NCBI GenBank assembly: GCA_900617105.1
Contig: UYFQ01000521.1
Coordinates: 1-61,227 of the forward strand
Reading direction: 5' to 3'
Length of the DNA: 61,227 bases
Source of the DNA: Hydrurus foetidus
Lineage: Eukaryota
Positions 50,128 to 50,355 of the stretch are shown in pieces. The notes beneath the pieces were generated by a model, which was given only the letters and a program-made list of their open reading frames with translations, ran no database searches and had not been told where the DNA came from. Numbering within the stretch: position 1 is the first letter of the stretch; each line of letters begins with the position of its first letter. The position numbers were made by a program, and so were the translations under genes.

Positions 50128-50344
50128 TGTGACCCGCACAGCTGTACAGCTGTACGGGTACCGGCGTACGTTCGGTTCGGATCGGGGACGATCCGAGCCA
50201 TCCGATTCATGACTTGCCTATCTCTGTGTTTATCTGTAAGCTAACCACATCTCTTTAGCAATAGCACCAGCACAACAGCTGCCTTCCTCTTGCCCCCGCG
50301 CCCTGTCCCAGCAGACCCACCGCAGAGCCCATAGTTAGGCCACA
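50128..50344 (+). repeat. Gypsy-3 5' LTR
   Basis: TG...CA direct repeat of 57346-57562. Confidence 0.98.
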
Positions 50345-50355
50345 ATACTAGTATT
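50344..50355 (+). other. Palindromic PBS-position motif AATACTAGTATT
   Basis: Perfect 12-bp palindrome overlapping the terminal A of the Gypsy-3 5' LTR. Confidence 0.82.

What the first reader, a model, noticed from the sequence alone, without database searches (positions are those of the whole stretch)
50344..50355. Gypsy elements carry a family-specific 12-bp palindrome where the tRNA primer site should be
Seen: Gypsy-3 has AATACTAGTATT at the 5' LTR/internal junction, Gypsy-2 has AATATCGATATT (32625-32636) and the Gypsy-0 LTR has AATAGATCTATT (1271-1282). All fit AATA-N4-TATT, all overlap the LTR terminal A identically, and the cores differ (CTAG, TCGA, GATC) while perfect self-complementarity is kept. 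The three LTR bodies are otherwise dissimilar, and none contains a copy of the motif. Established: most LTR elements prime with a tRNA 3' end (PBS starting TGG); Tf1/sushi chromoviruses self-prime with their own mRNA 5' end; retroviral genome dimers form through palindromes. Inference: two co-packaged RNAs anneal through the palindrome and one is cut to prime minus-strand DNA on the other. The variable core would restrict pairing to the same family. I do not know of a description of this mechanism, but could not search.
Basis: partly seen in the sequence, partly recalled or inferred. Interest (0 to 1): 0.92.

Follow-up and report, generated by a model that had tools for sequence, protein, structure and literature searches.

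The report
Palindrome replaces retrotransposon primer site
A group of jumping genes carries a short self-complementary sequence exactly where such elements normally bind a tRNA primer, and across relatives its letters change only in matched pairs, so two copies of the element's own RNA likely pair there to start their copying, a step not yet tested.

Summary
All three 12-mers sit where stated and overlap the LTR's last A. Two belong to gypsy elements with pol, one with a chromodomain; the third follows an LTR with no coding sequence. All 39 LTR junctions found in 37 of 58 related loci, and 2 of 2 in a second set, have a perfect 8–12-nt palindrome right after the LTR. In 28 aligned junctions the five inner pairs are 140/140 Watson-Crick, with 35 two-sided changes and no G-U. 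The central pairs change about as often as synonymous sites. No canonical tRNA site, Tf1-type LTR complement or GalEa-type second arm was found; host tRNAs could not be tested. Corrections: AATA-N4-TATT is too narrow, and the core is not family-specific. Most likely mechanism (about 0.5, inferred): two RNAs anneal through the site, RNase H cuts one, and it primes on the other; copying that primer would keep the site symmetric. A palindrome at this place is already published for fungal GalEa copia elements (Donnart 2017), without a mechanism. This scan also noted the feature before, in five findings from other genomes. Verdict: new variant of a known kind.

The parts
50344..50355 (+). Gypsy-3 palindrome: LTR terminal A + 10-nt palindrome ATACTAGTAT + T, in the place of the primer-binding site
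   Evidence: no variant at 1% or more listed in 4 runs
50128..50344 (+). Gypsy-3 5' LTR, 217 nt, TGTG..CACA, 4-bp target duplication ACGG
51132..57192 (+). Gypsy-3 gag-pol in four open frames (51132-53945, 53830-54552, 54581-55426, 55333-57192): RT, RNase H, integrase, chromodomain; relatives such as P0003 have one 2049-aa frame, so this copy is broken
57330..57341 (+). Gypsy-3 polypurine tract
   Evidence: sequence
57346..57562 (+). Gypsy-3 3' LTR, identical to the 5' LTR, followed by the duplication and not by a palindrome
32625..32636 (-). Gypsy-2 palindrome (core ATATCGATAT) at the end of its 5' LTR
32636..32906 (-). Gypsy-2 5' LTR, 271 nt; the element is inserted at the end of the reading frame of a copia element, 4-bp duplication ACCT
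28144..32624 (-). Gypsy-2 internal region (broken gag-pol, 50.6% identical to Gypsy-3 over RT-RH-IN) and 3' LTR remnant; integrase C-terminus, polypurine tract and LTR start are missing
1271..1282 (-). Gypsy-0 palindrome (core ATAGATCTAT)
1282..1486 (-). Gypsy-0 LTR-like stretch, 205 nt, TGTGA..CCACA; no second copy and no coding sequence in the window

Best explanation
These are chromodomain-type gypsy retrotransposons with a perfect palindrome in place of the tRNA primer site, and two co-packaged element RNAs likely anneal through it, after which the element's RNase H would cut one strand at the duplex edge so that it primes minus-strand DNA on the other. Shown: position, strict self-complementarity, compensated change, no canonical tRNA site, no Tf1-type complement. 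Inferred step 1: the 10-12-bp duplex forms between two RNAs in the particle. Inferred step 2: RNase H cuts the RNA duplex, as it does in Tf1, leaving a 3' end paired next to the LTR's last base. Inferred step 3: the R-U5 part of the primer RNA is complementary to the DNA it has just primed, so RNase H would trim the primer to about the palindrome. Inferred step 4: plus-strand synthesis copies this primer and writes the reverse complement of the site into the new DNA, so a single mutation gives a heteroduplex that can be fixed as a compensated pair in one cycle. The cut position is unknown.
For: All 39 junctions found in 37 of 58 loci and both junctions in a second set of 37 loci are palindromic. 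A second LTR copy with other flanks puts the LTR end 0-2 nt from the palindrome's first A in 8 families. In 28 rows the five inner pairs are 140/140 Watson-Crick, 35 cells changed on both sides, none on one side, no G-U; 0 of 500 shuffles reach this, and slid registers pair 35-61%. At least 25 compensated pair changes on a tree of 31 tips; the two central pairs change 9 and 10 times, against a mean of 11.2 (range 8-15) for 24 fourfold-degenerate sites. Close pairs differ by compensated doubles: L018/L019 (2 of 7 substitutions in 132 nt), L014/L039 (transversions), L009/L007 (4 changes). Duplex -6.8 to -14.1 kcal/mol, hairpin 0 to +3.3. RNase H domain present. Tf1 precedent for RNase H cleavage of an 11-bp RNA duplex (PMC7175516, passage).
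Against: No experiment and no RNA data. AU-only sites give a weak duplex (-6.8 kcal/mol). The site is not consistently exposed in local folds (mean unpaired probability 0.12-0.84; 0.30 in Gypsy-3). Tree counts may be saturated, so the near-neutral rate is only suggestive, and collapsed contigs can join a junction to another copy's pol. In Ty1 and Ty3 the PBS is not inherited from the primer (PMC5371799, passage), which weakens step 4. No single-mutant intermediate of the inner pairs was seen. Most junctions were located by looking for the palindrome; only 8 families have an independent LTR end.
Confidence: 0.5

Rival explanations
1. The palindrome is only a dimer or packaging signal, like the retroviral DIS or Ty1 PAL sequences, and the primer is some other, unknown RNA.
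For: Stable homoduplexes and weak cross-duplexes among the three window sites (-10.9 to -11.6 against -0.7 to -1.4 kcal/mol). Palindromes mediate Ty1 dimers (PMC4974528, passages).
Against: It occupies the primer position exactly and no other primer site was found beside it. Retroviral dimer palindromes lie in a hairpin loop in addition to the PBS (PMC5445492, passage). Selection alone would be expected to slow compensated change and to allow G-U; neither is seen.
Confidence: 0.17
2. Fold-back self-priming in cis: one RNA is cut just after the palindrome and folds back on its own first 3-4 bases; full symmetry is then needed so that the plus strand can transfer to the second RNA's copy.
For: It also explains strict Watson-Crick symmetry and one-step compensation. 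The outer three pairs are the most conserved (1-3 changes).
Against: The hairpin is unstable in all 40 junctions tested (0 to +3.3 kcal/mol); stems are A-U rich, and G-C pairs lie mostly in the would-be loop.
Confidence: 0.12
3. The primer is a short sense fragment of element RNA made by a host nuclease or by early termination, not by RNase H on a packaged dimer.
For: Any sense fragment that ends in the palindrome could prime, and all the symmetry evidence fits equally.
Against: No positive sign; it needs an extra host step, whereas Tf1 shows that the element's own enzyme can make the cut.
Confidence: 0.1
4. The site binds a host tRNA end or fragment, or the real PBS is a TGG just behind the palindrome.
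For: TGG follows the palindrome in 8 of 42 junctions, Gypsy-3 among them. Half-tRNA and internal tRNA primers exist (PMC6317226; PMC5445492). The host's tRNAs could not be examined.
Against: None of 42 junctions begins with TGG and 34 of 42 lack it behind the palindrome. Sixteen different perfect palindromes, ATATATATAT among them, would each need a matching tRNA stretch, and nothing in tRNA priming demands self-complementarity.
Confidence: 0.04
5. Tf1-type self-priming from the transcript's 5' end in the LTR.
For: L009 and L013 (one family) have a 9-of-10 match in the LTR (shuffle fractions 0.01 and 0.00) and L005 a 1-mismatch match (0.07). Chromoviruses of the Tf1/sushi group prime this way.
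Against: 0 of 42 junctions have a perfect 10-nt complement and 39 of 42 have 2 or more mismatches, while the same test finds 0, 0 and 1 mismatches in the window's three copia elements. Sister families keep an ATCGA stretch in the LTR although their site has a different core. In 15 of 42 no LTR start was found, so the test may not cover the whole LTR.
Confidence: 0.03
6. The palindrome is a DNA site for a dimeric protein such as integrase or a transcription factor.
For: Dimeric proteins bind palindromes (general knowledge); the outer ATA..TAT is conserved.
Against: The central four bases take many sequences yet always stay complementary, which a protein site with a free spacer would not need, and even the outer bases covary.
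Confidence: 0.04

Closest known systems
Conserved Hairpin Site of fungal GalEa Ty1/copia elements (Donnart et al. 2017, PMC5445492; passages and supplement file 3 seen)
   Same: No PBS; a palindrome that includes the final A of the 5' LTR sits in its place; the authors propose that it plays the PBS role, compare it with Tf1 and the retroviral dimer signal, and give no mechanism.
   Different: GalEa is copia and fungal; this is gypsy with a chromodomain. The GalEa palindrome is 10 bp and nearly one sequence (CTGATCAGT or CTAATTAGT after the A; the second form falls mostly in low-GC families, so it may reflect RIP, my inference). Here 16 sequences covary, transversions included. A second arm is listed for 39 of 44 GalEa families; none was found in 42 junctions here.
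Tf1/Tf2/Tj1 and the Tf1/sushi/Tcn1 chromoviruses (PMC7175516, PMC4600332, PMC10085805, PMC6317226; passages seen)
   Same: Chromodomain gypsy elements without a tRNA primer; primer site next to the LTR; a duplex of about 11 bp cut by RNase H is the precedent for the proposed chemistry.
   Different: Tf1's primer is the 5' end of the same transcript, so the LTR holds the complement of the PBS. That complement is absent here, and the site is its own complement.
Retroviral dimer initiation site and Ty1 PAL sequences (PMC4974528, PMC5445492; passages seen)
   Same: Palindromes that pair two genomic RNAs.
   Different: They lie apart from, and in addition to, a tRNA PBS; here the palindrome replaces the PBS.
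Skipper chromoviruses of dictyostelids (PMC5006619; passages seen) and Cryptococcus Tcn2-5 (one sentence in PMC7175516; the original paper was not seen)
   Same: Gypsy elements that lack a canonical PBS and are proposed to use an unknown priming mode.
   Different: Skipper has a polypyrimidine stretch, not a palindrome. What Tcn2-5 carry at this site could not be read, so a prior description there is not excluded.

Membership tests
Ty3/gypsy chromovirus | RT, RNase H, integrase in that order, with a C-terminal chromodomain | tested here: met
   Gypsy-3: Pfam RVT_1, RT_RNaseH, Integrase_H2C2, rve, Chromo; best solved relative of P0003 is Ty3 Gag-Pol, E 1.6e-78. Gypsy-2 has RT and integrase but has lost the C-terminus; Gypsy-0 has no pol.
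Ty3/gypsy chromovirus | TG..CA LTRs, target duplication, polypurine tract | tested here: met
   the duplications are 4 bp
Tf1/sushi self-priming group | PBS complementary to a stretch inside the 5' LTR | tested here: not met
   0 of 42 perfect, 3 of 42 with one mismatch; the window's three copia elements are positive in the same test
Tf1/sushi self-priming group | Branches with Tf1, sushi or Tcn1 in an RT-RH-IN tree | not tested
   No named reference sequences were fetched; the tree holds unnamed relatives only
GalEa with Conserved Hairpin Site | Ty1/copia domain order | tested here: not met
GalEa with Conserved Hairpin Site | Palindrome that includes the LTR's final A in place of the PBS | tested here: met
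   the outer pair is broken in 4 of 28 rows
GalEa with Conserved Hairpin Site | Second, inverse-complementary 9-mer a short way downstream | tested here: not met
   best matches have 2-5 mismatches, lowest shuffle fraction 0.2, in 42 junctions
tRNA-primed LTR elements | TGG-led PBS within a few bases of the LTR | tested here: not met
   0 of 42
tRNA-primed LTR elements | Complementarity to an internal or half host tRNA | not testable with these tools
   no genome held; no tRNA gene in the window or in 58 loci
Retroviral-type dimer initiation site | Palindrome exposed in a hairpin loop, separate from a PBS | tested here: inconclusive
   unpaired probability 0.12-0.84 with arbitrary fold limits; no separate PBS found

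The most novel reading that the evidence does not exclude
A third way to start LTR reverse transcription, beside tRNA priming and Tf1-type priming: one genomic RNA primes on its partner through a palindromic PBS, which ties priming to dimer formation and rewrites the site as its own reverse complement in each cycle. It would run through a deep clade of chromoviruses and may have arisen separately in fungal GalEa copia elements.
Probability: 0.45. Interest if true: 0.88.

Novelty: new variant of a known kind. Interest (0 to 1): 0.7.

Why it matters
How LTR elements without a tRNA site start reverse transcription is open for several groups (GalEa, Skipper, Tcn2-5). The covarying series found here turns the GalEa observation into a testable rule: any perfect palindrome next to the LTR should work, and a site and its reverse complement should rescue each other in trans. 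If true, a dimer would be chemically required for priming, the element would be free of host tRNA and of silencing by tRNA fragments, and annotation tools that demand a tRNA PBS would be missing a clade.

Tried and rejected
No genome is held, so no genome-wide survey and no host tRNA set. Two scans of viral contigs found no relative. No RNA holder listed among the sequencing runs. ARAGORN found no tRNA in the window or in 58 loci. Rfam on 8 of the 58 loci gave one weak hit below its cut-off, in a coding region; no ribozyme. Tf1-type complement and GalEa-type second arm: tested, not found. Folding window 50230-50480 gave z = -1.4 and pairs part of the palindrome with a 7-nt stretch about 100 nt downstream; such matches are no longer than in shuffles. 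The shuffle test (28 of 29 regions with a hit, 3.8 expected) is biased, because regions were centred on sites already chosen. The lack of variants in the palindrome covers the whole stretch 50334-50373 for substitutions, so it does not single out the site. 21 of 58 loci gave no junction: in most the contig lacks that end; L053 has an inverted element before gag and is unresolved; 10 short fragments were judged only by a gag search. 35 of 37 loci in the second set had no junction. Three loci were dropped from the tree for low coverage, and 7 tips with 8- or 12-nt sites or two junctions from the pair counts. The host was not identified and the clade was not placed among named chromoviruses. Nine literature searches found no paper on a palindromic primer site in gypsy elements; the library lacks most subscription papers, and Levin 1995/1996, Butler 2001 and Goodwin and Poulter 2001 were not seen.

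Full report
Observation. The three 12-mers are at the stated places and are perfect palindromes. The window is a nest of retroelements: three copia elements, two gypsy elements with pol and one lone LTR-like stretch. Gypsy-3 has identical 217-nt LTRs (50128-50344, 57346-57562), a 4-bp duplication ACGG, a polypurine tract and RT, RNase H, integrase and chromodomain, spread over four frames. Gypsy-2 lies on the minus strand inside a copia element, with a 4-bp duplication ACCT and a deletion of its 3' part; it is 50.6% identical to Gypsy-3 over RT-RH-IN. Gypsy-0 has no coding similarity in 1-2760, so its class is not shown. The pattern AATANNNNTATT is only mildly enriched (5 hits, 1.5 expected); what is unlikely is a palindrome at the exact LTR end (about 2.6e-4 per site).

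Relatives. A protein search returned 706 relatives, with no organism named among the 120 listed. In 37 of the 58 a 5' LTR junction could be located, 39 junctions in all, and each has a perfect palindrome of 8, 10 or 12 nt starting right after the LTR's last A. With the window there are 16 different sequences. Because most junctions were found through the palindrome, I sought independent LTR ends: in 8 families a second LTR copy followed by other DNA stops matching 0-2 nt from the palindrome's first A. For Gypsy-3, contigs in three of four runs leave the element behind 50344. A second scan gave 37 loci from bins labelled as bacterial; 2 hold tract, LTR, leader and gag in a row, and both are palindromic (L070, L087), while the 3' LTR of L075 is followed by non-palindromic flank. 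Runs that hold 60% or more of Gypsy-3's words come from six studies: biofilm, freshwater, sediment and air metagenomes and one coded organism. The host is a eukaryote, likely an aquatic microbe; that is inference.

Covariation. I aligned 28 junctions with 10-nt sites (25 from loci, one or more per family, and the 3 of the window). The five inner pairs are Watson-Crick in 140 of 140 cells; 35 cells changed on both sides, none on one side, and no G-U occurs. None of 500 shuffles reaches this and slid registers pair 35-61% (these controls do not fully correct for kinship). The pair formed by the LTR's A is broken in 4 of 28 rows, in two lineages, so it seems dispensable. On a tree of 57 pol regions, 31 tips with one 10-nt site need at least 25 compensated pair changes. 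The central pairs change 9 and 10 times, about as often as 24 fourfold-degenerate sites (mean 11.2) and the flanking bases (8-13); the outer three pairs change 1-3 times. Saturation may inflate this likeness, but close pairs point the same way: L018 and L019 (99.4% pol identity) differ by a compensated CG/TA double among 7 substitutions in 132 nt; L014 and L039 differ by two compensated transversions; L009 and L007 by four changes. Seven other related pairs share their site unchanged. The first could come from CpG decay on both strands, the second cannot. The core is not a family mark: distant branches share it and sisters differ.

What it is not. No junction of 42 starts with TGG; 8 have TGG behind the palindrome. 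Host tRNAs could not be compared. A Tf1-type complement in the LTR is absent: none perfect, 3 of 42 with one mismatch, 39 with two or more. The same test is positive for the window's three copia elements (0, 0, 1 mismatches; shuffle fractions at most 0.01), which serves as a control. The L009/L013 match (9 of 10) is the one result against my reading; sister families keep a similar LTR stretch with a different core. No GalEa-type second arm was found. The site does not fold on itself (0 to +3.3 kcal/mol) but pairs with a second copy (-6.8 to -14.1), and the three window sites pair poorly with each other.

Mechanism. A self-complementary site at the primer position means that the sense RNA can prime itself. 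The simplest version takes Tf1's chemistry, RNase H cutting an RNA duplex of about 11 bp (PMC7175516, passage), and applies it to a duplex between two packaged RNAs. The cut strand ends paired next to the partner's LTR end and is extended over U5 and R. Its own R-U5 is complementary to the new DNA and would be trimmed by RNase H. Plus-strand synthesis would then copy the primer, so the new DNA carries the site on one strand and its reverse complement on the other. That predicts strict Watson-Crick symmetry and compensated change in one step, as seen. All of these steps are inferred. The same copying argument holds for a fold-back primer in cis, so covariation does not prove a dimer; the energies favour the dimer. 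In Ty1 and Ty3 the PBS is not inherited from the primer (PMC5371799, passage), which is a caution. I put trans priming at 0.5, dimer signal only at 0.17, fold-back at 0.12, a host-made sense fragment at 0.10, and tRNA, Tf1-type and DNA-site readings at 0.11 together.

Known systems. Donnart et al. 2017 (PMC5445492; passages; supplement search and file 3) describe in fungal GalEa copia elements a palindrome that includes the LTR's final A and replaces the PBS, with a second arm listed in 39 of 44 families. They suggest that it acts as the PBS, compare it with Tf1 and the retroviral dimer signal, and say that no model fits. One other paper in the library uses the term (PMC6934838, passages). Tf1-type priming is reviewed in PMC6317226, PMC4600332 and PMC10085805 (passages), Skipper's polypyrimidine site in PMC5006619 (passages), Ty1 palindromes in PMC4974528 (passages); PMC7472051 (passages) notes that tRNA fragments target the PBS. 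Nine searches found no account of this site in gypsy elements, but the library is partial and the Tcn2-5 paper was not seen. Earlier notes of this scan report the same feature in other genomes; they are unchecked leads and did not enter the scores. Look-ups by place and by sequence found nothing.

Verdict. A real and strongly selected feature of a broad gypsy clade. The kind of site is known from copia; the gypsy setting, the covarying series and the rate argument are new as far as I could search. The priming mechanism is plausible, directly testable and unproven. New variant of a known kind, interest 0.70.

Noticed in passing
window 38109-44396 (+), 2766-7858 (-), 27306-38089 (-): All three copia elements lack a TGG site and have a 10-nt complement of the bases after the 5' LTR inside their LTR (0, 0 and 1 mismatches), as in Tf1-type self-priming. 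So none of the six LTR elements in this window shows a canonical tRNA site.
   Followed up: partly
L002:3334, L007:3523, L009:5498, L024:5116 and others: A two-part motif in the 3' untranslated region, 47-70 nt apart, whose halves could pair (one compensated change in L002). Each half occurs in 17 of 58 loci, both in 16; not found in the window's gypsy elements; no Rfam match in the 8 loci scanned.
   Followed up: partly
window 50124-50127 / 57563-57566 and 32907-32910 / 28140-28143: Both gypsy elements make 4-bp target duplications; 5 bp is what I recall as usual for chromoviruses.
   Followed up: no
window 59559-61223: Irregular TGG/TGGG array of about 1.7 kb at the window's end; possibly a telomere with an unusual repeat.
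   Followed up: no
window 7868-12632: 238-nt inverted repeats (96%) around a PIF/Harbinger-like transposase at 10681-11982.
   Followed up: no
window 16669-17446: Degenerate TATAC array of about 156 copies.
   Followed up: no
L059-L095: 37 loci with these eukaryote-type retrotransposon genes sit in genomes labelled as bacterial; likely binning contamination.
   Followed up: no
L002, L009, L030, L035, L038, L070 and L006-L008: Several families end their LTR in TA instead of CA and still keep the palindrome in register.
   Followed up: partly
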